Assembly (NCBI GenBank): GCA_016930555.1
Contig: JAFGGM010000051.1
Coordinates: 4,715-68,714, forward strand
Direction: 5' to 3'
Length of the DNA: 64,000 bases
Source: Candidatus Bathyarchaeum sp.
Lineage (GTDB): Archaea; Thermoproteota; Bathyarchaeia; Bathyarchaeales; Bathyarchaeaceae
A program made the position numbers and the translations under genes. The stretch's first letter is position 1; every line of letters begins with the position of its first letter. Shown piece after piece: positions 11,031-31,843 of this stretch. Under the pieces are notes generated by a model. The model did no database searches. It was not told where the DNA came from and saw nothing but the letters and a program-made list of their open reading frames with translations.

Positions 11031-11033
11031 ACC

Positions 11034-11546: not shown

Positions 11547-11600
11547 AAAGCTTGACAAAAAGAATTTATTGCTTAATTCAATCTACGTAAATCTGTGTGA

Positions 11601-12662
11601 GTGGAAAATATGGTTAAACTAGACTTTGGTGGCGTAAAAGAGACTGTAACAACAAGGAAAGAGTTTCCTGTAGAAAAAGCAAAAGATATCCTGAAGAAAG
11701 AAATAATTGCTGTCCTAGGATATGGTATTCAAGGACGCGCTCAGTCATTGAACATGAGAGACAACGGACTTTGTGTTATCATTGGACAAGACAAAAGGTT
11801 CACAAAAAACTGGGAACAAGCCCTAGAAGATGGCTGGGTTCCAGGTAAGACCCTTTTCTCTGTTGAGGAAGCTGCAAAAAAAGGAACCATCAAACTGTAT
11901 CTGCTGACTGATGCTGCACAGAAAGCATTGTGGCCAGTAATCAAGCCAACCTTCAAAGAGGGCGACGCACTATACTTTTCCCATGGGTTTTCAATAGTTT
12001 ATGGTGACCTCACGGGTGTGGTTCCTCCAGAAAATATTGACGTAATTTTGGTTGCGCCAAAAGGTTCTGGAACTTCAGTGAGACGAAATTTTGTTGCGGG
12101 TAGCGGAATAAACAGCAGTTTTGCTGTTCATCAAGATTTCACAGGCAGAGCAGAAGACAGAGTGAAAGCTATTGGAATCGCCATTGGTTCAGGTTACTTG
12201 TTTCCAACCACCTTCGAGAAGGAAGTTTACAGTGATTTGACTGGAGAACGGGGAGTATTGATGGGAGCCCTTGCGGGCATAATGGAAGCCCAGTATAACT
12301 GCTTACGTGAGAAGGGTCATAGCCCCAGTGAAGCTTTCAATGAAACTGTTGAGGAGCTTACTCAGAGCTTGATCAGGCTTGTCGATCAGAACGGAATGGA
12401 CTGGATGTACAACAACTGCAGTGAGACCGCAAGAATCGGTGCCCTCAGATGGAAAGAAAGGTTCAGGGATTGTGTGAAGCCTCTCTTTGATTCATTGTAT
12501 GAGCTGGTTGCTTCAGGAGAAGAAGTGAAGATTGTCCTTGAAAAGAGCACAGAACCTGGTTATGCGAAAAAGTTGGCTGACGAGCTAGCTGCCATGGGGA
12601 ACTCTGAGATGTGGAAGGCAGGCAAAACAGTACGGTCACTTAGACCTGACAGCAAGTGTTAA
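11601..12662 (+). CDS. ilvC: Ketol-acid reductoisomerase
   Basis: 353 aa with the GYGIQGRAQSLNMRDNG NADPH-binding motif of class I KARI. The probable ATG is at 11610. Confidence 0.95.
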   Translation: MENMVKLDFGGVKETVTTRKEFPVEKAKDILKKEIIAVLGYGIQGRAQSLNMRDNGLCVIIGQDKRFTKNWEQALEDGWVPGKTLFSVEEAAKKGTIKLYLLTDAAQKALWPVIKPTFKEGDALYFSHGFSIVYGDLTGVVPPENIDVILVAPKGSGTSVRRNFVAGSGINSSFAVHQDFTGRAEDRVKAIGIAIGSGYLFPTTFEKEVYSDLTGERGVLMGALAGIMEAQYNCLREKGHSPSEAFNETVEELTQSLIRLVDQNGMDWMYNNCSETARIGALRWKERFRDCVKPLFDSLYELVASGEEVKIVLEKSTEPGYAKKLADELAAMGNSEMWKAGKTVRSLRPDSKC

Positions 12663-15662: not shown

Positions 15663-16667
15663 TTATAGGGCATCGATTATTGCGTCTGTGACCTCTTTGG
15701 TGGACGAAGAGCCTCCAAGGTCCGGGGTCAAAACTTTTCCTTCCTTTAGCACAGATACGATGGCATTTTCTATGCGTTCAGCCCAACTGTTTTCGCCTAG
15801 GTAATCCAGCATCATCTTGGATGCCATAATCGCCGCCATAGGGTTTGCGATATTCTTTCCTGCAAGCCGTGGAGCAGAACCGTGAACAGGCTCAAAGAGG
15901 GCGTAATCGGCTCCTATGTTGGCGCTTGGAGCCAGTCCCAATCCTCCAACTATGCCAGCTGATTCGTCTGACAGGATGTCTCCGAAAAGGTTTGAGGTTA
16001 CAATCACGTCAAAGATGTTGGGCTTCAGAATAAGGCGCATTGCTGTAACATCAACGAAAGCTTCTTCCACTTCCACATCTGGGAAATCTTCTGCAACTTT
16101 GTGGGCAACCTCAAGAAAGAGACCGTCTGATACCCGTAGCACATTCGCTTTGGTAACCACAGTCACTTTCTTGCGCCGCTTCATAGCCAACTCAAAGGCA
16201 AATCGTGTAATCCGCTCAGTTGCCTTACGCGATATTACTCTGATGGTGTATGCAGAATCAGGCAACTTGAATTCCCATCCGCTGTACATTCCTTCAGTGT
16301 TTTCCCGTACAATCACCAAATCAACATCTTTCATGCCTTTCTGGGTTGGATAGCTTTTTGCGGGTCTAACATTAGCATATAAGCCTAGGGAGCGCCTCAA
16401 CATTATAATCGCGCTCTTGTAGCCTGGAACACCCACAGGAGTTGTTGTTGCTCCAAAGAGGCAAGCTTGAGTCTCACGTACGCCAGCCAAAACATCGTCA
16501 GGAACTGGAGTGCCAGTTTGTTGCCACACTTCAAAGCCGATTTCAAAGTATCTGCAATCAAAATTCAGGTCTGTGCTTTCCAGTAACCTGATAGCTTCAG
16601 GAACAACTTCGCCGCCGATTCCAGGACCCGGAATAACAGCCAACTTATACGTTGTCATATCCATCAC
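15663..16667 (-). CDS. leuB: 3-isopropylmalate dehydrogenase (or homoisocitrate dehydrogenase; specificity unresolved)
   Basis: 334 aa of the beta-decarboxylating dehydrogenase family (VIPGPGIGGEV..., NLFGDILSDE..GGLGLAPSANIG). It is the last gene of the hcs-leuC-leuD-leuB array. Confidence 0.85.
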   Translation of the reverse strand: MMDMTTYKLAVIPGPGIGGEVVPEAIRLLESTDLNFDCRYFEIGFEVWQQTGTPVPDDVLAGVRETQACLFGATTTPVGVPGYKSAIIMLRRSLGLYANVRPAKSYPTQKGMKDVDLVIVRENTEGMYSGWEFKLPDSAYTIRVISRKATERITRFAFELAMKRRKKVTVVTKANVLRVSDGLFLEVAHKVAEDFPDVEVEEAFVDVTAMRLILKPNIFDVIVTSNLFGDILSDESAGIVGGLGLAPSANIGADYALFEPVHGSAPRLAGKNIANPMAAIMASKMMLDYLGENSWAERIENAIVSVLKEGKVLTPDLGGSSSTKEVTDAIIDAL

Positions 16668-17130
16668 TTCTCAGAAACTCTACTAAGCCACCCCTATCAA
16701 CAATCTTCTGCATAAAGGGTGGTAACGGTTTCACCTTAAGAACTAACCCTTTAGTTTTGTCGCGAATCTCGCCAGTTTTGAAGTCTATCTCAACTGCGTC
16801 GCCGTCATCAATCTTCTCAGTATCTTCGCAAACAAAGAGGGGCAATCCAATGTTTATGGCGTTTCTGAAGAATATTCGAGCAAAGGATTTTGCTACTACA
16901 GCGCCTACGCCAGCAGCCTTTATCGCAACAGGAGAATGCTCCCGCGACGAGCCACAGCCAAAGTTGTTTCCCGCAACAATCACATCACCCTCCTTGACTT
17001 GTTTCACAAACTCTGGTCGGTACTCTATGAATGCTATTTCGCTCAGCCGTTTCTTGTCCGTTGTTACGGTGTATCGTCCAGGCGTGATAATGTCAGTATT
17101 TATGTCGTCACCAAACTTCCATGCTCTCAC
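16645..17130 (-). CDS. leuD: 3-isopropylmalate dehydratase small subunit (or homoaconitase small subunit)
   Basis: 161 aa, archaeal-type LeuD/HacB (FGDDINTDIITPGRY..., GNNFGCGSSREH). Confidence 0.85.
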   Translation of the reverse strand: MRAWKFGDDINTDIITPGRYTVTTDKKRLSEIAFIEYRPEFVKQVKEGDVIVAGNNFGCGSSREHSPVAIKAAGVGAVVAKSFARIFFRNAINIGLPLFVCEDTEKIDDGDAVEIDFKTGEIRDKTKGLVLKVKPLPPFMQKIVDRGGLVEFLRSDGYDNV

Positions 17131-18374
17131 ATGTAATCCCTCGGATCAGCAATCTTCCCTGTCAATGCTGACGCGGCAACCGTTGCCGGAGAAGCCAAAA
17201 TAATGTCTGCTTTCGGGTCGCCCATTCTTCCTGTGAAGTTACGGTTCATGCTAGAAACACAAGTCTCTCCCTCACAGAGCACTCCTTCGTGTCTGCCGAT
17301 GCAAGGACCACAACTGGCATTGCAGACTGTTGCTCCTGCTTTAACCAGAGCCTCCAAGTAACCTTCCTCTAGTGCTGCAAAGTAGATGTCCTCTGATGCA
17401 GGGGAGACTATGAGTCTGACGTTTCGAGCAATCTTCTTTCCTTTTAGTATTTTTGTGGCAACCTCGATGTCTTCTAGCCGCCCATTTGTGCATGTTCCCA
17501 GAAAGGCTTGATCTATTTTTCTCCCCTCAACTGCAGAAACAGGTTTCACATTATCTACTGATGCAGGAAGCGCAACCTGAGGCTCAAGTTCTCCAACCTC
17601 TATTTCATACTCGTCCTTGTATGATGCTTCCTTGTCGCTTCTGAAAATCTTTCCAGTTCGTCCGCCAAGAAAATCAAGCGTTTTTTGGTCAGCCTCGATT
17701 ATGCCGTTTTTTCCACCCATCTCAATAGCCATGTTACACAAAGTCAAACGAGAAGAGACCGTTGCGTTATCGACGTAGTCTCCAGTGAACTCGCAGGCTT
17801 TGTAGAGTGCTCCGTCAGCTCCAACATCACCAATAATGCTTAAGATAACGTCCTTAGCATAGACGCCTTTCCGTGTCTGGCCAGTTAGATTAAATTTCAG
17901 GCTTTCAGGAACCTTAAACCAGCATTTTCCCGTAGCCATGGAACCCCCAATGTCAGTTGACCCCAAACCAGTAGTGAAGGCTCCTAAGGCTCCTTCAGTG
18001 CATGTGTGAGAGTCAGCTCCAACAACTACGTCTCCAGGAGAAACAAACTTTTCAACCAAGAGCTGATGACAGACTCCATTTGTGAAGAATCCTGAAAGTT
18101 GTTGGTCAGCAACAAATTTTCTTGATTTCTGGTGTAGGGTTGCTCCTGCCACGGTGGGTGCAGGAAAGAAGTGGTCAAATACAATTATGACTTTGTCTTT
18201 GTTGAAGACTTTGTCAGTGATGCTGTAGAATGCTTCGATTGCCAGAGGGGCTGTGGAGTCGTGTGCCATAACATAGTTTACGTCGGCGATCGCAAAATCT
18301 CCAGCAGCCACTTCATTCTGATGGGACGCATGAGCTAAGATTTTTTCAGTTATTGTAGAAGCCATAAGCCTCAA
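17127..18374 (-). CDS. leuC: 3-isopropylmalate dehydratase large subunit (or homoaconitase large subunit)
   Basis: 415 aa of the aconitase family with cluster-ligand regions (GADSHTCT, GTCTNGR, CGPCIG). It has 4-nt overlaps with both neighbours. Confidence 0.85.
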   Translation of the reverse strand: MRLMASTITEKILAHASHQNEVAAGDFAIADVNYVMAHDSTAPLAIEAFYSITDKVFNKDKVIIVFDHFFPAPTVAGATLHQKSRKFVADQQLSGFFTNGVCHQLLVEKFVSPGDVVVGADSHTCTEGALGAFTTGLGSTDIGGSMATGKCWFKVPESLKFNLTGQTRKGVYAKDVILSIIGDVGADGALYKACEFTGDYVDNATVSSRLTLCNMAIEMGGKNGIIEADQKTLDFLGGRTGKIFRSDKEASYKDEYEIEVGELEPQVALPASVDNVKPVSAVEGRKIDQAFLGTCTNGRLEDIEVATKILKGKKIARNVRLIVSPASEDIYFAALEEGYLEALVKAGATVCNASCGPCIGRHEGVLCEGETCVSSMNRNFTGRMGDPKADIILASPATVAASALTGKIADPRDYM

Positions 18375-19612
18375 CGCTTCTCAGTTTCTGCTATCATTTC
18401 TTTAACTTCATCAGGAGTATAGGAGCTTCGTCTTGCTCCACTGGAATATGCTGCCTTTATTTTCTCAAGAACCTTCTTTGCAGTATCTTCGGAAATGCCG
18501 ATTTTGAGTTCTTTTTCTGCAACATACATGATTCCGTGTCTTCCACTCAGTTCATCTATGTACACTCTTCGTTTCTGCCCTACCAGTCTTGGTGGATAAA
18601 ACTCGTATGTTTGCGGGTTAATGAGAACACCGTGCTGGTGTATGCCTGAGCTGTGAACTGTCACGTTTTCTCCAGTTATTGGCTTGTGAGGAGGCATCTT
18701 TACTCCAGAAAGCTCCTCAACAAGTTTTGACAGAGAATTTAGTTGACTCATCTCAAAGGGGCTAGTGCCGTAGATTATATGTAGTGCAGGAATAAGTTCC
18801 TCTGTTACTGTTATTCCCGCTCTTTCGCCGATGCCATTCACACTTGTTGACACCGTTGAAGCGCCAGCATCTATTGCCGCCAAAGAGTTAGCCAAAGCCA
18901 ATCCGAGGTCGTTATGGCAGTGAACCTCAATGGGTATATCTACGACACTTCCGATTTCTTTCACCAGAAACGCCATACCGTTAGGACCTGTACAGCCCAA
19001 AGTGTCAACAACTCGCGCTCGGTCTGCTCCTGCATCTTCAGCGGTTTTGTAGGCTTTCTTCAGGAACTCCAAGTCGTTTTCTCTGGTTGTATCCTCTGCA
19101 CTGTAAATGACAAACAATCCATAGCTTTCCGCGTAGCTAACCATCTCTTCCAACCGTTCAAGGTATGTTTCTTGGGTCATGCCACCAAACTTGTGTTTGC
19201 GGTGGTAAGGAGATATAGATAGAGATACAACTATGCCGTCAGCACCTACATCCGCAACAGCATCAATATCCTCTTTCTTTGCCCTTGCAAAAGCTGAAAG
19301 CTGAGCGTCAAGGTTCATGTTAAGAATTGATTTAATGCAGTTTCTCTGCTTTTCTGAAGCAGCTGGAAATCCTGCTTCTATCTGCTGTATTCCAACTTCA
19401 TCCAATTTCTTGGCTATTTCCAGCTTGTTTTCTAGGCTAAAGATTACGCCTGGAGTCTGTTCGCCCTCTCGTAGTGTGCTGTCGTGGACAATGTAATTGT
19501 CTAGCTTAGGGGCTTTGAAGTTTACGAAGTTGTAGGGGCTTGGGAGAATTCCCTCTCTTTCCAGTCTTTTCAGTAATTTTTGCCCCTGTTCTTCAAGATA
19601 TTCTTCTTCCAA
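18371..19612 (-). CDS. Homocitrate synthase / isopropylmalate-synthase-family enzyme without the long LeuA regulatory domain
   Basis: 413 aa with HDSTLREGEQTPGV, HCHNDLGLALANSLAA and the HxH region. It is placed next to the Lrp and lysW cluster, consistent with the first step of the alpha-aminoadipate route. Confidence 0.75.
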   Translation of the reverse strand: MEEEYLEEQGQKLLKRLEREGILPSPYNFVNFKAPKLDNYIVHDSTLREGEQTPGVIFSLENKLEIAKKLDEVGIQQIEAGFPAASEKQRNCIKSILNMNLDAQLSAFARAKKEDIDAVADVGADGIVVSLSISPYHRKHKFGGMTQETYLERLEEMVSYAESYGLFVIYSAEDTTRENDLEFLKKAYKTAEDAGADRARVVDTLGCTGPNGMAFLVKEIGSVVDIPIEVHCHNDLGLALANSLAAIDAGASTVSTSVNGIGERAGITVTEELIPALHIIYGTSPFEMSQLNSLSKLVEELSGVKMPPHKPITGENVTVHSSGIHQHGVLINPQTYEFYPPRLVGQKRRVYIDELSGRHGIMYVAEKELKIGISEDTAKKVLEKIKAAYSSGARRSSYTPDEVKEMIAETEKR

Positions 19613-19777: not shown

Positions 19778-20206
19778 TTACCAGCTGCGCAATATGATCA
19801 TAGTGTTCGTGTCTGAGACTCCCCCCAGGCGCCGTATCTTCTCGAGGCACTCGTTAACCTCTGTGATGTTAAAGCCCGATATTATGGCTGCAATGTCATA
19901 TTCGCCAGTAATCTCATATACTGTTTCAACATTCGGAAGCTGCTTCAGTGCCTTGGAAACGTCAGAAGTAGGTAAAGATGGATTGACTGAAAGCAAAGCG
20001 ATTGCCTCTGCTCCTTCTGCAAGTCCAACCTTGACTGTGAAGCGTCGTATTGCTCCATCATCAACAAGGGCTTTGATTCTTTTCCGTACTGCGCCTTCAG
20101 ACAAGTCAATTCTTTTTCCTATGTTGCTATAGGTGGCTCTGCCATCATGTTTCAGAATTTCGATTATTGCCTTGTCAATGTCATCCATGTTCTTCACTTC
20201 TGACAT
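19778..20206 (-). CDS. Lrp/AsnC-family transcriptional regulator (LysM-like by position)
   Basis: MSEVKNMDDIDKAIIEILKHDGRATYSNIGKRIDLSEGAVRKRIKALVDDGAI... gives an HTH plus RAM domain. The tracked ORF (to 20383) was trimmed to the ATG at 20204-20206 because the extension has no family similarity. Confidence 0.85.
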   Translation of the reverse strand: MSEVKNMDDIDKAIIEILKHDGRATYSNIGKRIDLSEGAVRKRIKALVDDGAIRRFTVKVGLAEGAEAIALLSVNPSLPTSDVSKALKQLPNVETVYEITGEYDIAAIISGFNITEVNECLEKIRRLGGVSDTNTMIILRSW

Positions 20207-20226
20207 AATATCTATACGGAAAAATT

Positions 20227-20268
20227 TAACGATTTCTGAACAAAAGACGGTAAGTTTGTAACGATTTC
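20227..20268. promoter_or_regulatory. Exact 10-nt direct repeat TAACGATTTC x2 in the lrp/lysW divergent intergenic region
   Basis: TAACGATTTC occurs at 20227-20236 and 20259-20268, a 32-bp register. A related CGGATTTCG lies near 20339. Confidence 0.35.
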
Positions 20269-20396
20269 CGCATGAGGGTTCACCTTTTCTTACTAGAAAG
20301 CGGAATAACAGTTTGGACATCACAAGTAACCATCCTACGGATTTCGTATAATAAGTTGGAAAACGTGCAAAACTGCATGTCATTAATCCGAAATTC

Positions 20397-20450: not shown

Positions 20451-20627
20451 TTGAAGAAAGCCAAATGCCCCGATTGCGACGCGGAAATAGAAGTCCAAGA
20501 CGATGTCATGAAAGGCGAGATTCTCAGCTGCCCCAGTTGCGGTCTTGAACTGGAAGTGACATGTAACAAAGGAGACTCCGTGGAGCTAAAAGAATTAGGG
20601 ATTGAAGGAGAAGACTGGGGAGAATAG
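20451..20627 (+). CDS. lysW: Alpha-aminoadipate/glutamate carrier protein LysW
   Basis: This ORF is not in the track because it is 58 aa. The translation is (M)KKAKCPDCDAEIEVQDDVMKGEILSCPSCGLELEVTCNKGDSVELKELGIEGEDWGE. It has a CxxC...CxxC zinc ribbon and the diagnostic C-terminal EDWGE tail. A stop lies 2 codons upstream, and an SD-like element precedes the start. Confidence 0.85.
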   Translation: MKKAKCPDCDAEIEVQDDVMKGEILSCPSCGLELEVTCNKGDSVELKELGIEGEDWGE

Positions 20628-20736: not shown

Positions 20737-21921
20737 ATGAGCATTGGAATTTTATTTGAGAGCTCCGAAACAGACGAAAAAGGCATTAACATGACTGCTG
20801 AGCAGATGGGAATAGACCTAGTTTACATCCCCTTCCGCAAAGTTGCAGTTCGCCTAGACGAACATGGCTACAGCATTCGAACCAAAGCAAAGGACTATAC
20901 TAAAGTCATCAAAGACATCAAAGTAGTGCTAAACCGGGCACAAAGCAAGAACCGAAGACTCTTCGCAGCTAATGTTCTGGAAGCCTTCGGCAAACATGTG
21001 ATAAACCCACAGTGCGTAGAATATGCATGCTTCAGCAAACTGAGAACCTTACTCCACTTCTGGCAAGCAGGACTCCCAACTCCTGAGACAGTTTATGTTC
21101 CGGTTGATTCCACCGAAAAAACCTTGGATGGAAGGGAAATCCATAACGAAGGAGACATAGCAGACCTGTTTTTGATGGAACTGAACCATCAGAATATTGT
21201 AGTCAAACCTGACGCTGGAACTCATGGAAAGGGCGTTCAGTTAGCCAAAGAACGCAACGAGTTGTTGCCAATTCTGAGGGACATTCAGCCTTCAATAATC
21301 AATCCTGTTGGGGTCCTCGCTCAGAAGCTCGTCCAGAAATGGTTCTACGACCTCAGAATAATAGTTACTAAAGAGGATAGAAAGGCGCCATACTGCTACC
21401 CCACAGCCCTAGCTCGGGCAGGATTCAAAGATTTCAGGACAAACACATTCCTGGGCAACATGGTAGTTGGCGTGAATTTGCCAAGTCACATCAGAGAGGT
21501 AGCAGCCAAATGCGGCAAAGCTATGGGAGGAGACAGCAAAGCCTACCTTTTAGCTTTCGATGCAATGGTTGGCGTGAACGGAAATAAGGATGTTGAAGAT
21601 GAGCATCTGATGGAAGAATTTGAAAAACTTGAGCCCTCCTTTGATGCTGTAAAGAAGGTGAAAGGAGATAAGACCAAAAGAACGTCCTTCCCTGCATGGA
21701 ACAGGAAGCTGGAGGCGGCTTTTGAAAACTACAAGAGCCAAGAACCCTATCTGTACATAAAGGATGTTATTGAAGACAGTATGGAAAAGAACAAGCATAA
21801 TATAGTGTTCCATGAGGCCAATGCTTGCCCCGAATTCTGGGAACAAACCCGTTTAGCTGCTGGGATAAACATAGCAGAAGCACTGCTAAAGGGAGCTCAG
21901 AGTATAATAAATAACGAATAA
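20737..21921 (+). CDS. lysX: RimK/LysX-type ATP-grasp ligase, atypically long (putative LysW ligase)
   Basis: The N-terminus (IGILFESSETDEKGINMTAEQMGIDLVYIPFRKV) and RAQSKNRRLFAANVLEAFGKHVINP...KLRTLLHFWQAGLPTPET follow the LysX/RimK pattern. It is 394 aa against about 280 aa for characterised LysX. It occupies the position between lysW and lysY. Confidence 0.6.
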   Translation: MSIGILFESSETDEKGINMTAEQMGIDLVYIPFRKVAVRLDEHGYSIRTKAKDYTKVIKDIKVVLNRAQSKNRRLFAANVLEAFGKHVINPQCVEYACFSKLRTLLHFWQAGLPTPETVYVPVDSTEKTLDGREIHNEGDIADLFLMELNHQNIVVKPDAGTHGKGVQLAKERNELLPILRDIQPSIINPVGVLAQKLVQKWFYDLRIIVTKEDRKAPYCYPTALARAGFKDFRTNTFLGNMVVGVNLPSHIREVAAKCGKAMGGDSKAYLLAFDAMVGVNGNKDVEDEHLMEEFEKLEPSFDAVKKVKGDKTKRTSFPAWNRKLEAAFENYKSQEPYLYIKDVIEDSMEKNKHNIVFHEANACPEFWEQTRLAAGINIAEALLKGAQSIINNE

Positions 21922-21936: not shown

Positions 21937-22989
21937 ATGCGAGTTGGAGTAATTGGTGGATCAGGATACGTAGGCTCAGAACTATTACGACTGCTACTTC
22001 CCCACCCAAAAATAGAATTAACAATAGTGACTTCCCGTCAAAACGCAGGCGAATTCGTTTTCACGGTTCATCCTAACCTCAGAGGAGCCACTCAACTGAA
22101 ATTCACGCCCCCCAACATCTCCCAAGTAACAGAGAATTGCGACTTGGTGTTCGCTGCGATGCCCCACGGCAAATCATTGGAACTAGTTCCACAACTGCTT
22201 GAAACGGGAGTAAAGGTCATCGACATGAGCGCAGATTACCGCCTCAATAACCCAGTTGATTACGACAAATGGTACAGATGGAAACACACTCATCCAGAAC
22301 TGCTAGAAGAAGCAGTTTACGGTTGCCCTGAGCTTCACCGCCAAGAAATCAAAGACGCCAAGCTAGTAGCGTGTCCAGGATGCATGTCCACAGCCACGAT
22401 TCTGGGATTGGCGCCTCTCGTGAAGGAAGGCGTAATCGAAAAGAACAGGATAGTAGCTGACGTTAAGATCGGCTCCTCGGGTGCAGGACAAAAGCCCACT
22501 GTTACATCTCATCATCCTGAAAGGGCAGGTGGCGTGCGACCATACAAGGTAGCAGACCACAGGCATGTAGCAGAAGTTGAACAGGAACTCAATCTGTTAA
22601 CAGAAGAAAAAGTTACAGTAGCTTTTACACCCCATGCAGTAAACATGATTCGGGGCATTCTTTCAACAATTCACGCTTACCTCAAAACGCCAGTGACAGA
22701 CAAAAACGTGTGGAAGTTCTATCGCTCTATGTATCAAAATGAATATTTCATACGTTTTGTCAAGTTCAAGAAGGGACCTTACCAGTTGCCAAACCCCAAA
22801 ATTACGATGGGAACAAACTATGTTGACATCGGCTTCGAAGTAGACCCGCGCACACGAAGAATTATCGTCTTCTCAGCCATCGACAACCTCATGAGGGGCG
22901 CATCTGGTCAAGGAGTGCAATGCATGAACCTTATGATTGGCATAAACGAAAAAACTGGCATAGACCAACAAGGTTTCCATCCGATGTGA
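21937..22989 (+). CDS. lysY: [LysW]-aminoadipyl-phosphate / N-acetyl-gamma-glutamyl-phosphate reductase
   Basis: 350 aa of the ArgC family (MRVGVIGGSGYVGSELLRLL, the active-site region ACPGCMSTA). Confidence 0.9.
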   Translation: MRVGVIGGSGYVGSELLRLLLPHPKIELTIVTSRQNAGEFVFTVHPNLRGATQLKFTPPNISQVTENCDLVFAAMPHGKSLELVPQLLETGVKVIDMSADYRLNNPVDYDKWYRWKHTHPELLEEAVYGCPELHRQEIKDAKLVACPGCMSTATILGLAPLVKEGVIEKNRIVADVKIGSSGAGQKPTVTSHHPERAGGVRPYKVADHRHVAEVEQELNLLTEEKVTVAFTPHAVNMIRGILSTIHAYLKTPVTDKNVWKFYRSMYQNEYFIRFVKFKKGPYQLPNPKITMGTNYVDIGFEVDPRTRRIIVFSAIDNLMRGASGQGVQCMNLMIGINEKTGIDQQGFHPM

Positions 22990-22995
22990 TAAAAA

Positions 22996-23802
22996 ATGTT
23001 GATCGTAGTTAAGGTTGGCGGAAGCATTCTTGAAGAGGTGCCAGCTGAACTGGTAACCGACATAAAGAACGTACTTTCTGAGCACGAACTCGTATTGGTT
23101 CATGGAGGAGGAAAAGGCGTCACAGAAATAGCCTCTAAGCTTGGCAAAGAGCAACAGTTCGTTTTTTCGCCAACAGGTTTTCGCAGCCGATACACAGACA
23201 AAGAGACTATGGAAATCTTCACGATGGTGATGGCAGGCAAAATCAACAAAAAAATAGTTATAGCCCTAATGAAACAAAAGATACCAATCGTTGGGCTTTC
23301 AGGCTTAGATGGATTGCTTGTGCAAGCAACAAGAAAGAAGCGCATAATCATAGTTGATGAGCGGGGCAGAAAGCGCGTGATTGACGGCGGCTACACAGGA
23401 AAGGTTAGCCAAATCAACGTTTCCTTGCTTCAACTCCTACTCGAGAATGGTTTTGTGCCATTAGTCTCTCCGATTGCAGCAAGTGAAGAGCAGGAACCCC
23501 TTAATGTTGACGCTGACCGCACAGCAGCCAATATCGCTGGAGCCTTGAAAGCAGATATGCTGGTTCTGTTGACTGACGTTGAAGGACTGAAGTTGAACGA
23601 TAAGGTGGTCTCGAAACTCTCTATCGATGATGTTGAGGACAAGCTGAAGAAGATTGGGGGCGGCATGATAACCAAAGTTTACGCTGCCCATGAAGCATTA
23701 AATCAGGGCGTTAGCGAGGTGGTAATCTGTTCTGGCGTCCGAAAGAATCCGATTTCTAACGCTTTGAAGCATGAAGGTGGTACGGTGATAAGCCGTGAAT
23801 GA
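22996..23802 (+). CDS. lysZ: [LysW]-aminoadipate kinase / acetylglutamate kinase family
   Basis: 268 aa amino-acid kinase fold (VVKVGGS..., VLVHGGG, NVDADRTAANIA). Confidence 0.9.
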   Translation: MLIVVKVGGSILEEVPAELVTDIKNVLSEHELVLVHGGGKGVTEIASKLGKEQQFVFSPTGFRSRYTDKETMEIFTMVMAGKINKKIVIALMKQKIPIVGLSGLDGLLVQATRKKRIIIVDERGRKRVIDGGYTGKVSQINVSLLQLLLENGFVPLVSPIAASEEQEPLNVDADRTAANIAGALKADMLVLLTDVEGLKLNDKVVSKLSIDDVEDKLKKIGGGMITKVYAAHEALNQGVSEVVICSGVRKNPISNALKHEGGTVISRE

Positions 23803-24979
23803 AAAAAAAGTAATCGATATCGAAGATAAAATTATGGCAAACACCTTCGCCAAAAGAAACCTTGTGTTAACAAGGGGCAAAGGAGCCACAGTTTGGGACA
23901 TCAACGGAAACGAATACATTGATTGCACAGGCAGCTATGGAGTTGCTGTTGTTGGTCACTGTCACCCAAAAGTTGTGAAAGCAGTTCAAAAGCAAGTGGA
24001 AAGTCTTATTGCCTGTCACGCCTCCTTCTACAACGACATACGTTCAGAGCTTCTCCAAAAATTAATTAACTTAGCTCCAAAGGGACTCGACAAAGTTTTT
24101 CTTTCTAGCAGCGGCGCCGAGGCAGTTGAGTGCGCCATAAAATTGGCTAGAAAAGCTTCAGGCAAAACCGAAATAATCGCCATGATAGGAGCCTTTCACG
24201 GCAAAACCATGGGCGCTCTTTCTGCAACATGGAAAAAGAAGTATCGGGCGCCTTTCATGCCCTTGGTTCCAGGATTCAAGCATGTTCCTGCAAACAATCT
24301 TGAAAAGATAAGGGAAGTAATCACTGACAACACTGCCGCAGTAGTTGTTGAACCAGTCAGGGGAGAGGGCGGAATCCTTGTCAATTCAGACGACTTTCTT
24401 CCGGGACTACGAGAACTCTGTGACGAAAAAGGCGTGTTACTAATTTTCGATGAAGTACAAACGGGTTTTGGTCGCACAGGCAAAGTTTTCGCATGTGAAC
24501 ACTGGAACGTAGTTCCCGATATCATGTGTCTTGCCAAGTCTGTTGCTGGCGGAATTCCCATGGGCGCAACCTTTGCCAAAGAGGAAATTATGTCTGCCTT
24601 CAACAAGGGAGAGCACTCAAGCACATTCAGCGGTAACCCATTAGTTTGTGCTGCGGCTTCTGCAGCCATAGATGTGCTTGTTGAAGAGAAACTTCCAGAA
24701 AGGGCAGCAACTCTTGGGCAATACTTCAAGAGCAAGCTGGAAACCTTAGCTGAGAAATACAAGATTGTCAGAGAGGTCCGAGGTTTGGGTCTTATGATTG
24801 GGATGGAGATGCGATTTGACGTTTATAATATACTGCTTGGATGCATGGAGAGGGGGGTTCTTGTTTTGGATGCTGGAAGAAACGTTGTCCGGTTTCTGCC
24901 GCCCTTAGTCATCGAGGAACAGCAGATCGACAGAGTCATTGAAGTACTGGATGAAGTATTGGCAGGGGAGAACAAATGA
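23795..24979 (+). CDS. lysJ: [LysW]-aminoadipate semialdehyde / acetylornithine aminotransferase
   Basis: 394 aa class III PLP aminotransferase (LIFDEVQTGFGRTGK, with the PLP lysine in the LAKSVAGG region). Confidence 0.9.
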   Translation: MNEKKVIDIEDKIMANTFAKRNLVLTRGKGATVWDINGNEYIDCTGSYGVAVVGHCHPKVVKAVQKQVESLIACHASFYNDIRSELLQKLINLAPKGLDKVFLSSSGAEAVECAIKLARKASGKTEIIAMIGAFHGKTMGALSATWKKKYRAPFMPLVPGFKHVPANNLEKIREVITDNTAAVVVEPVRGEGGILVNSDDFLPGLRELCDEKGVLLIFDEVQTGFGRTGKVFACEHWNVVPDIMCLAKSVAGGIPMGATFAKEEIMSAFNKGEHSSTFSGNPLVCAAASAAIDVLVEEKLPERAATLGQYFKSKLETLAEKYKIVREVRGLGLMIGMEMRFDVYNILLGCMERGVLVLDAGRNVVRFLPPLVIEEQQIDRVIEVLDEVLAGENK

Positions 24980-26118
24980 GTAACGACTACGCCGTTGACC
25001 TGCTTACACGCATGACAAAAATTTACAGCCCCTCAGGCAACGAAGAGAAGATTTCCTTGTTCTTGGCTGACGAAATGACGAAACTGGGTTTCATAGTTCA
25101 CAGGGATGAAGTAGGAAACGTTATCGGCGAAATAGGTGAAGGCTCTCCAGTTGTTCTTTTGTGTGGGCACATGGACACTGTTGAAGGGAAGATTCCTGTC
25201 AGGGTTGAGGACGGACAACTGTATGGCAGAGGCTCCGTGGACGCAAAAGGTCCGTTAGCCGCCATGATTGTAGCTGCCTCCACCTTTGTCAAGAACGGTT
25301 TTCCAGGAAAGATTCTGGTTGTTGGCGTCGTAGATGAGGAAAAGGGGGGCACAGGAATCCAGCATTTTGTTGAAGAAGGCATTCAGCCAGATTACGCCAT
25401 TTTCGGTGAGCCAAGCGGTTTAGAAAAGATTGTCTTCGGCTACAAGGGCATCGTAACTGTGAAGGTATCTGTTAAGACACCCTCAGGTCATTCTGCTGCA
25501 CCATGGCTCTTCGATAATGCAATTGAGAAAGCTATGGAGTTTTGGAGACAGATTAACAAGCTTCATTTGCGGGAAGAGAAACTGAAGAGCCGTTTCTACT
25601 CAATTACATCTTGCTTAACGGGAATAAAGGGCGGAAACCATTCTGCCTCTTTTATTCCCTCAGAGTGCGAGATTATTGTTCAGTTAAGAATTCCACCTCA
25701 GCTAACACCAGATGTCGTGTTTGAGGAAGTAAAGCGGAAGATTGACCGCTACAAAGCAACTAACCCTAAGGTTCAAGTATCGGTGGAGATGGTGGATGTG
25801 GCTAAAGCCTTCGAAGCTGACCGCAGGTCCGTTATTGTCAGGGCTTTGGCTTGGGGCATCAGAAAGACCACACTGAATTATGCATCTTTTTCGCGGAAAA
25901 CGGGTACAGGAGACATGAATGTTCTTGGTAATGCCCTGAAGATTCCGGTGGTTACGTATGGACCCGGAGACTCTCGGCTAGACCACACACCCAACGAACA
26001 CATAGACATCCAAGAATACCTAGAAAGCATCGAAGTTCTGAAGAAGGCTCTCCATAAGCTGCCTGACTTCGTTGAGAAACAGGAAAAAAGACAACAAAGA
26101 GACTGCAACAATAATTAG
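24976..26118 (+). CDS. lysK: [LysW]-lysine hydrolase / acetylornithine deacetylase (M20 family)
   Basis: 380 aa with M20 motifs (LLCGHMDTV, GRGSVDAKG, DEEKGG). It has a 4-nt overlap with lysJ. Confidence 0.85.
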   Translation: MSNDYAVDLLTRMTKIYSPSGNEEKISLFLADEMTKLGFIVHRDEVGNVIGEIGEGSPVVLLCGHMDTVEGKIPVRVEDGQLYGRGSVDAKGPLAAMIVAASTFVKNGFPGKILVVGVVDEEKGGTGIQHFVEEGIQPDYAIFGEPSGLEKIVFGYKGIVTVKVSVKTPSGHSAAPWLFDNAIEKAMEFWRQINKLHLREEKLKSRFYSITSCLTGIKGGNHSASFIPSECEIIVQLRIPPQLTPDVVFEEVKRKIDRYKATNPKVQVSVEMVDVAKAFEADRRSVIVRALAWGIRKTTLNYASFSRKTGTGDMNVLGNALKIPVVTYGPGDSRLDHTPNEHIDIQEYLESIEVLKKALHKLPDFVEKQEKRQQRDCNNN

Positions 26119-27469: not shown

Positions 27470-28675
27470 TTATTGGTAGCTTTGCCACTTGCTTTCCAGT
27501 GCTGGGTCCTGAATAGTTTTCATCAAGTAGTCAGCAAATTCTGCTCCAGTAGCGCCATCTGATCTTCCTGTTGTTATCACCTTTTTCTCGTACTGTCCAC
27601 AGACGTCAAGAGCCATCTCAAGTTTCTTTGCTTCAGCAGCAAATCCGATGTGTTTCAGGAGCATGACTGTTGCTCTCAGGATGCTGGCGGGGTCAGCGTA
27701 TTCGGCTCTTCCTTCCTCAACCATTCTTGGAGCTGAGCCATGGATAGCCTCAAACATTGCGTATCTTTTGCCGATGTTTGCGCTTCCAGCTGTGCCGACT
27801 CCTCCTTGGAATTCAGCCGCTTCGTCAGTAATTATGTCTCCATAAAGGTTTGGCAATACTACAACCTTGAATTGGGTTCGTCGCTTCGGGTCCACAAGCT
27901 TTGCAGTCATGATGTCAACAAACCAGTCATCCCATTCAACACCAGGATAAAGTTTGGCCACCTGCTCTGCCACGCTGAGGAATTTTCCGTCAGTTGTTTT
28001 CACTACATTCGCTTTGGTTACAACAGTTACCTTGTTGATGTTGTTTTTCTTGGCGTAATCAAAGGCCATCTCGGCAATTCTTTCGGAACCCTGTGTGGTT
28101 GTTACTTTGAAGTCAACAGCAAGATCGTCAGTGACATTCACTCCCTTGCCCCCAAGTACGTATGCGCCTTCTGTGTTCTCCCTGAAGAATATCCAATCGA
28201 TTCCTTCTTCAGGAACCTTTACAGGTCTCACGTTCGCAAACAGGTCAAGAATCCGCCGCATAGCAACGTTTGCACTCTCGATGTTAGGCCATTTGTCGCC
28301 CTTCTTCGGAGTGTATGTTGGACCCTTGAGTAGAACATGGCACGTTTTTATTTCTGCTAGAACGTCGTCAGGTATCGTCTTCATGACCTTGGCTCTGTTC
28401 TCGATGGTCAAGCCCTCAATGACTTTCATTTGGACTTTCCCATTGGCTACCTCTTTTTTCAGCAGAAATTCTAGAACCCTCTGGGCTTCCTTAGTGATGA
28501 ATGGACCAATACCGTCTCCGCCAACAATTCCGATTACTATCGGCTTCAGTTTGGCGTAGTCCAGCCAGTTTTCTGCCTGTTTCATTTGTTCGACTCTTTC
28601 AAGCTGTTCTTCAAGCAGCTTACCAAAATGTTCCTTTGCCGCTTTAATTTCTTTATTCATTTCCATTTCCTCCAA
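27470..28675 (-). CDS. icd: Isocitrate dehydrogenase (isocitrate/isopropylmalate dehydrogenase family)
   Basis: 401 aa with GGDGIGPFITKEA, NLYGDIITDEAAEFQGGVGTAGSANIG and HGSAPRMVEEGRAEYADP. It is adjacent to aclA. It has a charged helical N-terminal stretch of about 45 aa, and an alternative start is possible. Confidence 0.8.
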   Translation of the reverse strand: MEEMEMNKEIKAAKEHFGKLLEEQLERVEQMKQAENWLDYAKLKPIVIGIVGGDGIGPFITKEAQRVLEFLLKKEVANGKVQMKVIEGLTIENRAKVMKTIPDDVLAEIKTCHVLLKGPTYTPKKGDKWPNIESANVAMRRILDLFANVRPVKVPEEGIDWIFFRENTEGAYVLGGKGVNVTDDLAVDFKVTTTQGSERIAEMAFDYAKKNNINKVTVVTKANVVKTTDGKFLSVAEQVAKLYPGVEWDDWFVDIMTAKLVDPKRRTQFKVVVLPNLYGDIITDEAAEFQGGVGTAGSANIGKRYAMFEAIHGSAPRMVEEGRAEYADPASILRATVMLLKHIGFAAEAKKLEMALDVCGQYEKKVITTGRSDGATGAEFADYLMKTIQDPALESKWQSYQ

Positions 28676-28680
28676 TTTTT

Positions 28681-30531
28681 TTATTTTATTTCTTCCTTTT
28701 TAGGAGAAGCATAAAGAATGTCATTCCATGGATGTCTGTACAGGTTTTCCTTAAGACGCTTTTGATCTAGGATGTGCCCCATGAATCCGATGCTGCGCCC
28801 AAGCACGAAGAGCCCATTTAGGGCTCCAGTTTCGATGATGTCACTGATTTCCTGTTTTGAGAAACCTAAACTGTTAAGCATATCAACGAAAAGAATTCCT
28901 ACACAGCCATCAACATTCAATATTAGGTTGTCCCTTTTTGCTGTGGTCACTTTCTCAACAGCTAGGGCGTAATCGAGGTAATCGGTTTTCGGAAAATTTT
29001 CTCTAGCATACTTTTTGAGAAGCTCCACACGCTTGTCTGGGTTAATCACTGACTTGACACGATGACCAATTCCAGGAATCAGTATGTCCATGGCCTTCAT
29101 ATCATCAACCATCTCTTTGGGCTCCTTGGCTTCATCATGGAACTTCTTGAACCAGTACGCTGCTCCGTCAATGGCGCCTCCGAAACGTGGACCAATCGTC
29201 AACAAACCGCTAACCAACGAGGATATGAGATCCTTTCCGGCTCTCGCAGAGATTATGGCATTGTGAGCGCCTGACACTGCAGGACCATGATCAGCCACTA
29301 TCTGCAAAACTAGCTCAATGAAGCCTGTTCCCCATTTCGGGAGTTCTTTCTTGAACCACAGAAGCCCGATAACTCCGCCGATTCCGTAGCCATTTTCTAC
29401 AACTTCAGTTAGAGGCACACCCGCATACATGGGTTGGTCTCCTCGCTCGTCAGTGATTGTACTGACAAAATGCGTTGGTATCCTCACCATTCCTTCAGTT
29501 ATAGCAGTGCTTAAGTCCATGGGAGTTTTCTTGGGCTCCCTATCTGGTTTAGGCTTAACTTTTCCTTCTTTCACCAGCTTGTCAAAAGTTTCTTTGATTT
29601 TTTTGCCCAAATCATCGAAGGAATCTGGGACGACTGCTCCTGCTTCTTTCAAAGCTTTATTTTTTGCGTCAGCTGTTTCCAAGTCAGTTCTTGCCTTTGC
29701 TCCCGCATGACCAAACTGTACTCCAGCTGAGAACATTTTGGAGCATGTTCCGATGCACCATGCAACAAGTGACTTAGTGATTTTTCCAGTTTTCAGGGCG
29801 TTTACGATGTCATATTCATCTCTGCCTCCGACTTCGCCGAGGAGAACAATCATGGCTGCATCTGGGTCCTGTTGGAATCTCATTACGTGGTCTATGAAGG
29901 TACTACCTGGATAGAGGTCTCCGCCGATGGCTATTCCTTCGTAGACGCCGTCGCTGTTTCTGGAAACGATGTTATTCAGTTCGTTAAGCAGTCCACCTGA
30001 CTTCGAAACAAAGGCAACGCTTCCTGGGCGATGCAACCGAGACGCTATTATGTTGTCGATCATGCCACCAGTGTTTCCTATCTTGAAGGCTCCGCCCTTG
30101 ATTGCGCCAACTGTTGCGGGACCGATTATCCATTTTCCCTTCTGTCTTGCAATAGCAGCAAGTTCTCTTGTGTATCTTTCAGGGATTCCTTCGGCAATGA
30201 TTGCGACTGTGCGGATGCTATCGATTTCGAGGGCTTCTCTTGTTCGGGGGTAAGCTGACCTGAAGGATGCGAAGTTGACCATCACATCAGCTTGAGGATG
30301 CTTTTCTGCTGCTTCCTTGATGCTTGTGTATATTGGAAGAATGATTTCTTCAGGTCCCCAGAAGCATTTGTGGTATCCGTCTCTTGTCGGGTCAACAATT
30401 GCTACGATGCTGGGGTTTTTTCTTTCGCATGCATAGTCGAAGTCAAGCATGCGTTGGATAGCCCTTTGCTGGTATCCAAAGATGATAGCTTGGGTGTTCT
30501 TATCAAACAGTTTATAGTTGCTCATTTTCAC
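28681..30531 (-). CDS. aclA: ATP-citrate lyase alpha (large) subunit
   Basis: 616 aa. A CoA-binding/ligase portion carries the phosphohistidine loop [10 protein letters not shown], fused to a citrate-synthase-like C-terminal domain. It has a 4-nt overlap with aclB. Confidence 0.9.
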
Positions 30532-31811: not shown

Positions 31812-31843
31812 TTTTTTGTCTCCTTCAATTAATTTTCAGTCTG

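What the first reader, a model, noticed from the sequence alone, without database searches (positions are those of the whole stretch)
20737..21921. LysX-like ATP-grasp is about 110 aa longer than classical LysX, with a large insertion between the metal-ligand motifs
The N-terminal half aligns by eye with LysX/RimK. Between the Asp of LLAFDAM and the Glu/Asn of VFHEANACPEF there are 84 residues, where RimK/LysX-type enzymes have roughly a dozen (family architecture recalled from memory). The insert (NGNKDVEDEHLMEEFEKLEPSFDAVKKVKGDKTKRTSFPAWNRKLEAAFENYKSQEPYLYIKDVIEDSMEKNKHN) is charged and predicted helical. This is the face that must recognise the acidic LysW tail. The insert could therefore alter carrier or substrate choice (aminoadipate or glutamate), or add a regulatory element.
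Basis: partly seen in the sequence, partly recalled or inferred. Interest (0 to 1): 0.55.

Follow-up and report, generated by a model that had tools for sequence, protein, structure and literature searches.

The report
LysX-type ligase with helical insert
This gene is very probably the enzyme that starts carrier-protein-based lysine synthesis in a Bathyarchaeia archaeon, and it belongs to an undescribed archaeal branch of that enzyme family that carries a built-in three-helix bundle, which makes standard annotation models miss it.

Summary
ORF 20737-21921 encodes a 394-aa ATP-grasp protein. Its Mg-ligand Asp275 and Glu360/Asn362 are 84 residues apart, against 11-12 in solved LysX/ArgX (273-282 aa). 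A high-confidence AlphaFold model (pLDDT 91) has a LysX/ArgX-like core (TM 0.86-0.90 to 3VPD, 3VPB and 5K2M). A three-helix bundle (residues 288-351) replaces the turn of the hairpin that carries the metal ligands. No solved structure or Pfam family matches the insert.

The insert is under purifying selection as strong as the core. It marks a monophyletic "long" branch, with relatives in 175 GTDB species genomes. The 80 best are nearly all labelled Bathyarchaeia/Bathyarchaeota, and the gene sits in lysW-X-Y-Z-J-K order there. Asgard archaea have long forms in an X-lysZ-carrier arrangement. Other long subclades lie beside methanofuran or glycosyltransferase genes with no carrier.

So the gene is most likely the cluster's LysW ligase, although it fails the curated LysX model (85 against 276 bits). 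Because carrier-less subclades share the insert, it is an inherited subdomain and not a LysW-specific device. The residues known to set aminoadipate or glutamate choice lie outside it and read I-L-T-QT, closest to an engineered dual-specificity variant. Where the insert sits relative to LysW could not be tested. I rate this a new variant of a known kind, of moderate interest.

The parts
20737..21921 (+). Long LysX-type ATP-grasp ligase, 394 aa plus stop codon
   Evidence: ORF and translation. Pfam RimK domain scores 35.9 bits against a cut-off of 21. Foldseek gives TM 0.86-0.90 (normalised by target) to LysX 3VPD, ArgX 3VPB and LysX/ArgX 5K2M.
21562..21813 (+).
   Evidence: Solved LysX/ArgX have 11-12 residues here.
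21574..21801 (+). Inserted subdomain proper (residues 280-355). It is a three-helix bundle: H1 288-309 (21598-21663), H2 318-333 (21688-21735), H3 336-351 (21742-21789). A basic H1-H2 segment (VKKVKGDKTKR) lies between acidic helices.
   Evidence: AlphaFold model mc471991a8238, block pLDDT 91-98 across the helices. Charge profile and conservation. dN/dS. No Pfam or PDB sequence match.
21559..21561 (+). Asp275, Mg ligand on strand 270-279
   Evidence: Invariant in all long and short forms aligned.
21814..21822 (+). Glu360-Ala-Asn362, Mg ligands on strand 356-362
   Evidence: E360 and N362 are invariant across the three long subclades in A6. They align with E249/N251 of T. thermophilus LysX.
21205..21231 (+). 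ATP-binding Lys157 and the glycine-rich loop GTHGK (GSWGR in classical LysX)
   Evidence: Alignment. K157, G161 and G164 are invariant.
21349..21363 (+). The D205-L-R207 motif and Ile209, which aligns with specificity position Phe182 of T. thermophilus LysX
   Evidence: Motif definition from PMC12998189.
21409..21447 (+). Leu225 (aligned with Ile192 of T. thermophilus LysX) and the T-N-T237 loop (Thr237 aligned with Thr203)
   Evidence: Residues 236-239 are the only low-confidence loop in the model.
21844..21849 (+). Gln370-Thr371, aligned with specificity pair Asn258-Ser259 of T. thermophilus LysX. A one-residue insertion precedes it, and T371 is invariant in the long branch.
21100..21144 (+). 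Secondary 15-residue insertion (residues 122-136) at the junction of the N and central domains, predicted as short strands
20451..20627 (+). lysW, the amino-group carrier protein: 58 aa, zinc ribbon, C-terminal EDWGE
   Evidence: Pfam Zn_ribbon_LysW E=8e-15. NCBIfam carrier_LysW_Arch 72.6 bits against a cut-off of 75. The tail is EDWGE in 75 of 77 related loci.
21937..22989 (+). lysY/argC-type reductase
   Evidence: TIGR01850 443 bits.
22996..23802 (+). lysZ, [LysW]-aminoadipate/[LysW]-glutamate kinase
   Evidence: NF010662 308 bits against a cut-off of 194.
23795..24979 (+). lysJ/argD-type aminotransferase
   Evidence: TIGR00707 458 bits.
24976..26118 (+). lysK, [LysW]-lysine hydrolase type
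   Evidence: NF003367 356 bits against a cut-off of 363; TIGR01902 285 bits against 163.
19778..20383 (-). LysM-type Lrp/AsnC regulator, transcribed divergently. The family model covers residues 66-201, so the real start is probably Met66 at nt 20188.
   Evidence: NF040947 166.8 bits against a cut-off of 180.
15663..19612 (-). Upstream half of the aminoadipate pathway: homocitrate synthase (18371-19612), homoaconitase large (17127-18374) and small (16645-17130) subunits, and homoisocitrate dehydrogenase (15663-16667)
   Evidence: Homocitrate synthase: NCBIfam match for the 18371-19612 product. Homoaconitase subunits and dehydrogenase: assigned by eye from the ORF translations, not scanned against any family model. 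The set is co-located with the lys genes in related loci.

Best explanation
The gene encodes the ATP-grasp ligase of a complete LysW-dependent aminoadipate lysine cluster in a Bathyarchaeia archaeon. It fills the role LysX has in Thermus and Sulfolobus.

Mechanism, inferred from the family: ATP activates the gamma-carboxyl of the C-terminal Glu of LysW (tail EDWGE) as an acyl phosphate. The alpha-amino group of alpha-aminoadipate, and possibly also glutamate, then attacks it.

The core keeps every catalytic element: Lys157, the glycine-rich loop, Asp205-x-Arg207, the TNT loop, and Mg ligands Asp275, Glu360 and Asn362. It superposes on solved LysX/ArgX.

The protein belongs to a separate, monophyletic 'long' branch of the RimK/LysX family. 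In this branch the tight turn of the beta-hairpin that carries the Mg ligands is replaced by a rigid three-helix bundle packed on the C-terminal domain. Four smaller insertions are also present. The bundle was present in the ancestor of the branch, before its members ended up in different gene neighbourhoods.

I therefore read the bundle as an inherited structural subdomain that adds a protein-contact surface, for self-association or for docking an acidic partner on its conserved basic H1-H2 segment. I do not read it as the determinant of amino-acid choice.

What is shown: fold, motifs, synteny, clade and selection. What is inferred: the chemistry, the substrate range and the role of the bundle.
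For: Cluster and synteny:
- The window holds lysM | lysW-X-Y-Z-J-K, with homocitrate synthase, homoaconitase and homoisocitrate dehydrogenase upstream.
- The lysW-X-Y-Z-J-K order recurs in the large majority of the 80 best GTDB species-genome loci; the exceptions are mostly loci cut short by a contig end, and 4 of the 80 show no lysY hit and have the carrier on the opposite strand.
- No other RimK-type ORF is present in the window.

Fold and catalytic residues:
- Model pLDDT is 91.2 and pTM 0.91.
- Foldseek TM (normalised by target) is 0.86-0.90 with rmsd 2.6-2.9 A to LysX 3VPD, ArgX 3VPB and LysX/ArgX 5K2M. RimK scores 0.71-0.81.
- Catalytic residues are invariant.

Clade:
- Only 97 cluster representatives out of 1.84 billion reach E<1e-3. 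All the full-length long-form representatives that were aligned carry the insert.
- The long branch is monophyletic in 98.5% of 200 neighbour-joining bootstraps on 269 shared columns.
- Asgard long forms are followed by a LysZ-type kinase (203 bits against a cut-off of 194) and a LysW-like carrier.

Constraint on the insert:
- Invariant positions across 74 species.
- dN/dS 0.04-0.17 for the insert against 0.06-0.12 for the core.

Insert not tied to LysW:
- Long subclades beside mfnD/F/E-like genes or beside glycosyltransferases lack a carrier gene within the flanks examined.

Specificity residues lie outside the insert:
- I209, L225, T237, Q370-T371, compared with the motif defined in PMC12998189.
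Against: - The protein fails the curated LysX equivalog model: TIGR02144 gives 84.9 bits against a cut-off of 275.6. It also fails the rimK_fam cut-off, 91.6 against 143.4.
- It shares only 16-19% identity with solved LysX/ArgX in the structural alignments. Functional equivalence therefore rests on context and fold, not on close homology.
- No whole genome was searched, so a classical short LysX/ArgX elsewhere in the same organism is not excluded.
- The position of the bundle relative to the LysW-binding surface was not computed.
- The many invariant charged surface residues in the Bathyarchaeia subclade (K306, K309, K314, K333, E326) suggest a specific interface, and that interface could be LysW.
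Confidence: 0.7

Rival explanations
1. The helical insert would be a carrier-recognition module: its basic H1-H2 segment would dock the acidic globular domain of LysW, giving a mode of carrier recognition different from classical ArgX/LysX and possibly changing carrier or substrate choice.
For: - LysW is strongly acidic, with net charge about -10.
- Residues 301-325 of the insert carry net +6 and include invariant lysines.
- Two long subclades (Bathyarchaeia A and Asgard) are encoded next to carriers.
- The high pTM implies that the bundle is held rigidly against the core.
Against: - The insert is also present in long subclades with no carrier gene nearby. Its sequence is only 9-23% identical between subclades.
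- LysW here is canonical, with the EDWGE tail and a near-threshold family score. Nothing about the carrier calls for a new reader.
- Topology, as my inference and recalled ATP-grasp structures: the hairpin tip lies at the adenine end of the sheet, opposite the amino-acid pocket.
- The specificity residues lie outside the insert.
Confidence: 0.25
2. The protein would not be the LysW ligase. It would be a paralogous RimK-like ligase with another substrate, for example cofactor polyglutamylation, and the true LysX would be encoded elsewhere.
For: - It scores far below the LysX model cut-off.
- A sister subclade sits beside methanofuran-type genes. RimK homologues are known to polyglutamylate methylofuran (PMC8141765).
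- Another subclade sits beside glycosyltransferases.
Against: - The gene sits immediately downstream of lysW and upstream of lysY-Z-J-K, and it holds that position in the large majority of the 80 best Bathyarchaeia species genomes examined.
- No other RimK-type ORF is in the window, and each of the 80 loci shows only one LysX-type hit.
- Asgard homologues are likewise paired with a LysZ-type kinase and a carrier.
- The fold is closer to LysX/ArgX than to RimK.
Confidence: 0.07
3. The insert would be an allosteric or regulatory element, for example for lysine or arginine feedback or for control of lid closure over ATP.
For: - The insert emerges next to the residues expected to line the adenine pocket (Met277, Phe358/His359). 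This is my inference and from recalled structures of D-Ala-D-Ala ligase and biotin carboxylase.
- It is conserved under purifying selection.
Against: - It shows no similarity to any known ligand-binding domain.
- The cluster already has a LysM regulator, and feedback control in this pathway usually acts on homocitrate synthase (established knowledge).
- A three-helix bundle of about 65 residues has no obvious pocket.
Confidence: 0.08
4. The extra length would be an artefact: a frameshift, a fusion, a mis-assembly or low-complexity filler.
For: None found.
Against: - The same length and register occur in 1640 database proteins and in 175 species genomes.
- dN/dS is well below 1.
- The structure of the insert is predicted with high confidence.
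Confidence: 0.01

Closest known systems
LysX of Thermus thermophilus (PDB 1UC8, 1UC9, 3VPD), the alpha-aminoadipate-LysW ligase
   Same: - The three-domain ATP-grasp fold matches: TM 0.87-0.90 (normalised by target), rmsd 2.7-3.8 A.
- All catalytic motifs are present.
- The gene lies next to lysW and the lysY/Z/J/K genes.
- Specificity positions 2 to 5 are conservatively similar: L/I, T/T and QT/NS.
   Different: - It is 114 residues longer than the 280-aa 1UC8/1UC9 chains.
- A 75-residue three-helix bundle replaces the hairpin turn between the Mg ligands, and there are four smaller insertions.
- Identity is only 16-19% in the structural alignments.
- GSWGR becomes GTHGK, and specificity position 1 is Ile instead of Phe.
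- It fails TIGR02144, 85 bits against a cut-off of 276.
Bifunctional LysX/ArgX of Thermococcus kodakarensis (PDB 5K2M)
   Same: - There is a single ligase in a single lysW-X-Y-Z-J-K-type cluster.
- The kinase matches the model for the dual [LysW]-aminoadipate/[LysW]-glutamate type.
- Structural match: TM 0.88-0.89.
   Different: - The motif here is I-L-T-QT, against Y-I-T-NA.
- The helical insert is absent from 5K2M.
- Dual specificity here is only a hypothesis.
ArgX of Sulfurisphaera tokodaii (PDB 3VPB, 3VPC), the glutamate-LysW ligase
   Same: - Fold match: TM 0.86-0.89.
- Ile occupies specificity position 1.
- Both use a LysW-type carrier.
   Different: - The ArgX motif is I-Y-V-GF, whereas here it is I-L-T-QT.
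- ArgX has no insert.
- Sulfolobales-type systems have two short ligases. A Thermoproteota MAG with two short carrier-ligase pairs was seen.
RimK, MptN, CofF and MyfB: alpha-L-glutamate ligases of the same Pfam family (PF08443)
   Same: The Pfam RimK domain is above its threshold and the fold is the same. Some long-branch relatives sit in cofactor-type neighbourhoods.
   Different: - Structural similarity is lower, TM 0.71-0.81.
- Scores fall far below the MptN and CofF cut-offs.
- The genomic context here is a lysine cluster with a carrier protein.

Membership tests
ATP-grasp superfamily, RimK family (Pfam PF08443) | Family HMM score above the curated threshold | tested here: met
   PF08443 scores 35.9 bits against a cut-off of 21. 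The match covers residues 147-264 only, because the insert interrupts the domain.
ATP-grasp superfamily, RimK family (Pfam PF08443) | Three-domain ATP-grasp fold with a Lys, a glycine-rich loop, D-x-R, and Asp/Glu/Asn Mg ligands | tested here: met
   The model has pLDDT 91. TM is 0.86-0.90 to LysX/ArgX. K157, G161, G164, D205, R207, N236, D275, E360 and N362 are invariant.
LysX, alpha-aminoadipate-LysW ligase (NCBIfam TIGR02144 equivalog) | Equivalog HMM score above the cut-off | tested here: not met
   84.9 bits against a cut-off of 275.6. Only residues 3-267 match.
LysX, alpha-aminoadipate-LysW ligase (NCBIfam TIGR02144 equivalog) | Encoded beside lysW and the lysY/Z/J/K genes of the aminoadipate pathway | tested here: met
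   Seen in the window. The same order recurs in the large majority of the 80 best related species genomes.
LysX, alpha-aminoadipate-LysW ligase (NCBIfam TIGR02144 equivalog) | Substrate signature F-I-T-NS (T. thermophilus LysX positions 182, 192, 203, 258-259; PMC12998189) | tested here: inconclusive
   The window has I209-L225-T237-Q370T371. Positions 2 to 5 are conservative substitutions. Position 1 is the ArgX-type Ile, and the engineered F182I LysX is dual-specific. The mapping rests on a sequence alignment.
LysX, alpha-aminoadipate-LysW ligase (NCBIfam TIGR02144 equivalog) | ATP-dependent ligation of aminoadipate to the C-terminal Glu of LysW | not testable with these tools
   This needs an enzyme assay.
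ArgX, glutamate-LysW ligase | Signature I-Y-V-GF | tested here: not met
   Only position 1 matches.
Bifunctional LysX/ArgX (Thermococcus type) | Signature Y-I-T-NA, and a single ligase serving both the Lys and Arg branches | tested here: inconclusive
   The motif differs at positions 1, 4 and 5. One ligase per cluster and a dual-type LysZ model match are consistent with this type. The rest of the genome was not examined.
RimK (S6 glutamate ligase), MptN, CofF | Family-specific HMM cut-offs | tested here: not met
   rimK_fam scores 91.6 against 143.4, MptN 46 against 350, and CofF 20.5 against 300.

The most novel reading that the evidence does not exclude
The long branch would be an old, separately evolved lineage of carrier-protein ligases in Bathyarchaeia and Asgard archaea. 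Its three-helix arm would dock the globular domain of the amino-group carrier, which is a recognition mode different from the solved ArgX-LysW and LysX/ArgX-LysW complexes. The single Bathyarchaeia enzyme would load both aminoadipate and glutamate, feeding lysine and arginine synthesis from one cluster.
Probability: 0.2. Interest if true: 0.6.

Novelty: new variant of a known kind. Interest (0 to 1): 0.4.

Why it matters
1. Annotation. These proteins fall far below the curated LysX model. Several NCBI-sourced MAG entries name them 'hypothetical protein' or 'ATP-grasp domain-containing protein'. Automated pathway reconstruction can therefore score the aminoadipate lysine pathway as incomplete in Bathyarchaeia and Asgard archaea, which biases claims of auxotrophy.

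2. Enzyme architecture. A folded domain inserted at the tip of the hairpin that carries the Mg ligands has no counterpart among the solved structures searched here. It offers a natural test of how much that hairpin can tolerate.

3. Evolution. The same long scaffold appears in lysine clusters, in Asgard ligase-kinase-carrier clusters, and beside methanofuran and glycosyltransferase genes. It is therefore a useful case of one ligase lineage being recruited to different acceptors, and it bears on how the carrier-protein Lys/Arg pathways diversified in archaea.

Tried and rejected
- A search for a second LysX/RimK-type gene in the window found none.
- Sequence searches with the insert alone, as a profile against PDB chains and as single sequences against Pfam, gave only noise at E>0.01.
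- The first AlphaFold run used 31 close homologues and gave a poor model (pLDDT 66). A 77-sequence alignment spanning three subclades then gave pLDDT 91, and that model replaced the first.
- The search for related loci with the 18-sequence alignment failed because no stretch was conserved enough. A 7-sequence alignment worked.
- The paper on the T. kodakarensis LysX/ArgX-LysW structure (PMC5076833) is not held. PMC12998189 has no text on carrier-docking surfaces. The known LysW-contact residues could therefore not be mapped.
- Literature searches for LysW or LysX together with Bathyarchaeia, Asgard or Thaumarchaeota found no description of a long form.
- A Biopython bootstrap tree timed out and was replaced by a numpy neighbour-joining bootstrap.
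- The artefact explanation (frameshift or fusion) was rejected on conservation and dN/dS.
Full report
**The observation**

ORF 20737-21921 (+ strand, ATG to TAA) encodes a 394-aa protein. Pfam finds a RimK ATP-grasp domain only over residues 147-264 (35.9 bits against a cut-off of 21), plus a sub-threshold LysX pre-ATP-grasp match.

A direct sequence search of PDB chains finds ArgX (3VPB) and LysX (1UC8, 3VPD) only at E of about 1e-5, over residues 52-121. I rebuilt the sequences of T. thermophilus LysX, T. kodakarensis LysX/ArgX and S. tokodaii ArgX from HMMER alignments. I checked their numbering against the published F182, I192, T203, N258 and S259.

In a MAFFT alignment the Mg-ligand Asp275 and Glu360/Asn362 of the window protein are 84 residues apart. 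The solved enzymes have 11-12 residues there. Of about 110-116 extra residues, 75 lie in this hairpin. The rest form smaller insertions at residues 43/48-59, 122-136, 215-219 and 266-269.

**Structure**

An AlphaFold run on 31 close homologues gave a poor model (pLDDT 66). A run on 77 sequences spanning three subclades gave mean pLDDT 91.2 and pTM 0.91.

- Strands 270-279 and 356-362 carry Asp275 and Glu360/Asn362.
- Between them lie three helices: 288-309, 318-333 and 336-351, with block pLDDT of 91-98.
- Foldseek against the PDB ranks LysX 3VPD, ArgX 3VPB/3VPC and LysX/ArgX 5K2M first. TM normalised by target is 0.86-0.90 and rmsd is 2.6-2.9 A.
- RimK follows at 0.71-0.81.
- TM normalised by the query stays near 0.64, so no solved chain covers the extra parts.
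- The insert alone has no significant match in Pfam or among PDB sequences.

**Is the insert constrained?**

Across 74 Bathyarchaeia species (54-92% identical to the window protein) the insert keeps its length. It has invariant positions such as F302, K306, K309, K314, F318, W321, N322, L325, E326, Y338 and I345. It is somewhat more variable than the core: the mean majority fraction is 0.64 against 0.74.

Pairwise Nei-Gojobori estimates against close relatives give dN/dS of 0.04-0.17 for the insert and 0.06-0.12 for the core. The charge is segmented: -6 over residues 276-300, +6 over 301-325, and -3 over 326-359.

**Genomic context**

- lysW lies just upstream (20451-20627). It is a zinc-ribbon protein with the tail EDWGE.
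- lysY, lysZ, lysJ and lysK follow.
- A LysM-type regulator, homocitrate synthase, both homoaconitase subunits and homoisocitrate dehydrogenase lie upstream on the other strand. The homoaconitase and dehydrogenase assignments rest on reading the ORF translations and on co-location in related loci, not on a family-model scan.
- The kinase passes the model for the dual [LysW]-aminoadipate/[LysW]-glutamate kinase (308 bits against 194).
- No second RimK-type ORF exists in the 64 kb.

**Distribution**

- The big protein database holds 1640 relatives at E<=1e-3. The best 120 are mostly 387-413 aa, and where a source names the organism they come from Bathyarchaeota/Bathyarchaeia MAGs. Many are named only 'hypothetical protein' or by generic ATP-grasp terms.
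- An exhaustive HMMER scan of 1.84 billion cluster representatives returns just 97 hits. All the full-length long forms that were aligned (356-434 aa) carry an insert at the same place. Only the weakest hits are ordinary forms of 270-300 aa.
- A scan of one genome per GTDB species found relatives in 175 genomes. The 80 best are nearly all labelled Bathyarchaeia/Bathyarchaeota; three bins carry other labels. In the large majority of them the gene sits in lysW-X-Y-Z-J-K order, often with lysM and homocitrate synthase upstream. The exceptions are mostly loci cut short by a contig end, and 4 loci show no lysY hit and have the carrier on the opposite strand.
- Their LysW proteins end in EDWGE in 75 of 77 cases.

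**The wider long branch**

A profile of the distant long forms recovered three further groups.

- Asgard proteins of 382 aa (Hodarchaeota, Promethearchaeota, Thorarchaeota, Hermodarchaeota). They are followed by a LysZ-type kinase (203 bits against 194) and a 70-71-aa LysW-like zinc-ribbon protein ending EEDWRE or EEEWRE.
- A second Bathyarchaeia subclade of 372-386 aa. It is transcribed divergently from hisAF-related-mfnD-mfnF-mfnE-like genes and lies near homocitrate synthase and lysM. No carrier lies within 8 kb.
- A 415-434-aa group next to glycosyltransferases, also without a carrier.

On 269 shared columns, the long forms are monophyletic in 98.5% of 200 neighbour-joining bootstraps. The insert therefore arose once and was inherited by ligases that now sit in different neighbourhoods.

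For contrast, a Thermoproteota MAG carries two classical short carrier-ligase pairs in one Lys/Arg cluster.

**What the gene is**

Fold, catalytic residues and strictly conserved position next to lysW make this the cluster's LysW ligase. It works like LysX. It is not a member of the curated LysX equivalog: TIGR02144 gives 84.9 bits against 275.6. I therefore file it as a new long variant within the RimK/LysX family.

The residues that set aminoadipate versus glutamate choice are defined in PMC12998189:

- LysX: F-I-T-NS
- ArgX: I-Y-V-GF
- Bifunctional LysX/ArgX: Y-I-T-NA

In the window protein they map to I209-L225-T237-Q370T371, all outside the insert. This set is LysX-like at four positions. 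It has the ArgX-type Ile at the first position, and the engineered F182I LysX accepts both substrates in that paper. With a single ligase per cluster and a dual-type kinase, a bifunctional Lys/Arg role is plausible but untested.

**What the insert does**

This is inference. Carrier-less subclades share the bundle, and its sequence is only 9-23% identical between subclades. It is therefore unlikely to have arisen as a LysW reader.

The chain after Asn362 runs towards the specificity pair Q370-T371, which places the hairpin tip at the opposite end of the sheet. In D-Ala-D-Ala ligase and biotin carboxylase, as I recall their structures, the residues just after the Asp-type ligand and just before the Glu ligand line the adenine pocket. 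Here those residues would be Met277 and Phe358/His359. The bundle should therefore emerge beyond the adenine end of the nucleotide site, not at the amino-acid pocket.

The high pTM indicates that the bundle is packed rigidly on the C-terminal domain. The many invariant charged residues within the Bathyarchaeia subclade suggest an interface. I favour a protein-contact role: self-association, or docking of an acidic partner on the basic H1-H2 segment.

I could not compute the geometry relative to LysW.

**Novelty and verdict**

The literature held here does not describe a long LysX form in these lineages. The finding is real. It is a clade-defining variant of a known enzyme with an orphan helical subdomain. 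It matters mainly for annotation of lysine synthesis in Bathyarchaeia and Asgard archaea, and as a structural curiosity of the ATP-grasp fold. Interest 0.4.

Noticed in passing
L082 8001-9122, L085-L087 8001-9131 (proteins P0223, P0225): A second long-branch subclade in thermophilic Bathyarchaeia (372-386 aa) is transcribed divergently from a hisAF-related-mfnD-mfnF-mfnE-like operon. It lies near AdoMet-decarboxylase-like, homocitrate synthase and lysM genes, with no LysW within 8 kb. It could be a stand-alone LysX/ArgX, or a methanofuran glutamate ligase analogous to the RimK homologue MyfB (PMC8141765).
   Followed up: partly
L081 8001-10281; L083 8001-10344: In Asgard archaea (Hodarchaeota, Promethearchaeota) a 382-aa long ligase is followed by a LysZ-type kinase and a 70-71-aa zinc-ribbon carrier ending EEDWRE or EEEWRE instead of EDWGE. 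No lysY, lysJ or lysK lies in the flanks examined.
   Followed up: partly
L089 2383-3645; L090 2256-3518 (P0157): A 415-434-aa long-branch subclade has a still larger insert. It sits upstream of two glycosyltransferase genes and has no carrier gene, which suggests a different acceptor.
   Followed up: partly
L091 4616-12861: A Thermoproteota MAG has argG, a 39-aa carrier, a short ligase (286 aa), lysY, lysZ, lysJ, lysM and homocitrate synthase. A second carrier (55 aa), a second short ligase (290 aa) and lysK follow in the same run. That makes two classical carrier-ligase pairs, in contrast with the single long ligase of Bathyarchaeia.
   Followed up: no
window 19778-20383 (-): The listed LysM ORF is 201 aa, but the LysM family model covers only residues 66-201. 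The real start is probably Met66 (nt 20188), which leaves about 260 bp of divergent promoter region before lysW.
   Followed up: partly
window 27470-33778 (-): An isocitrate-dehydrogenase-like gene (27470-28675), both ATP-citrate-lyase subunits (28681-30531 and 30528-31811) and an aconitase (31844-33778) lie in a row next to the lysine cluster. This looks like a citrate-cleavage/TCA module. Only the 30528-31811 subunit and the aconitase were scanned against Pfam; the dehydrogenase and the other lyase subunit are assigned by eye from the translations.
   Followed up: partly
window 4182-12662 and 34014-43789: The window is dense in amino-acid biosynthesis genes. One stretch holds ilvD, a leuA-type synthase, ilvB and ilvC. 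Another holds a nearly complete archaeal-type shikimate/aromatic cluster: DeoC-family aldolase, DHQ synthase II, shikimate dehydrogenase, GHMP kinase, EPSP synthase, chorismate synthase, an aminotransferase, prephenate dehydrogenase and prephenate dehydratase.
   Followed up: partly
window 20451-20627 and 24976-26118: LysW (72.6 bits against a cut-off of 75) and LysK (356 against 363) both fall just under their curated NCBIfam cut-offs. The whole Bathyarchaeia cluster, not only the ligase, is therefore at risk of generic annotation.
   Followed up: no
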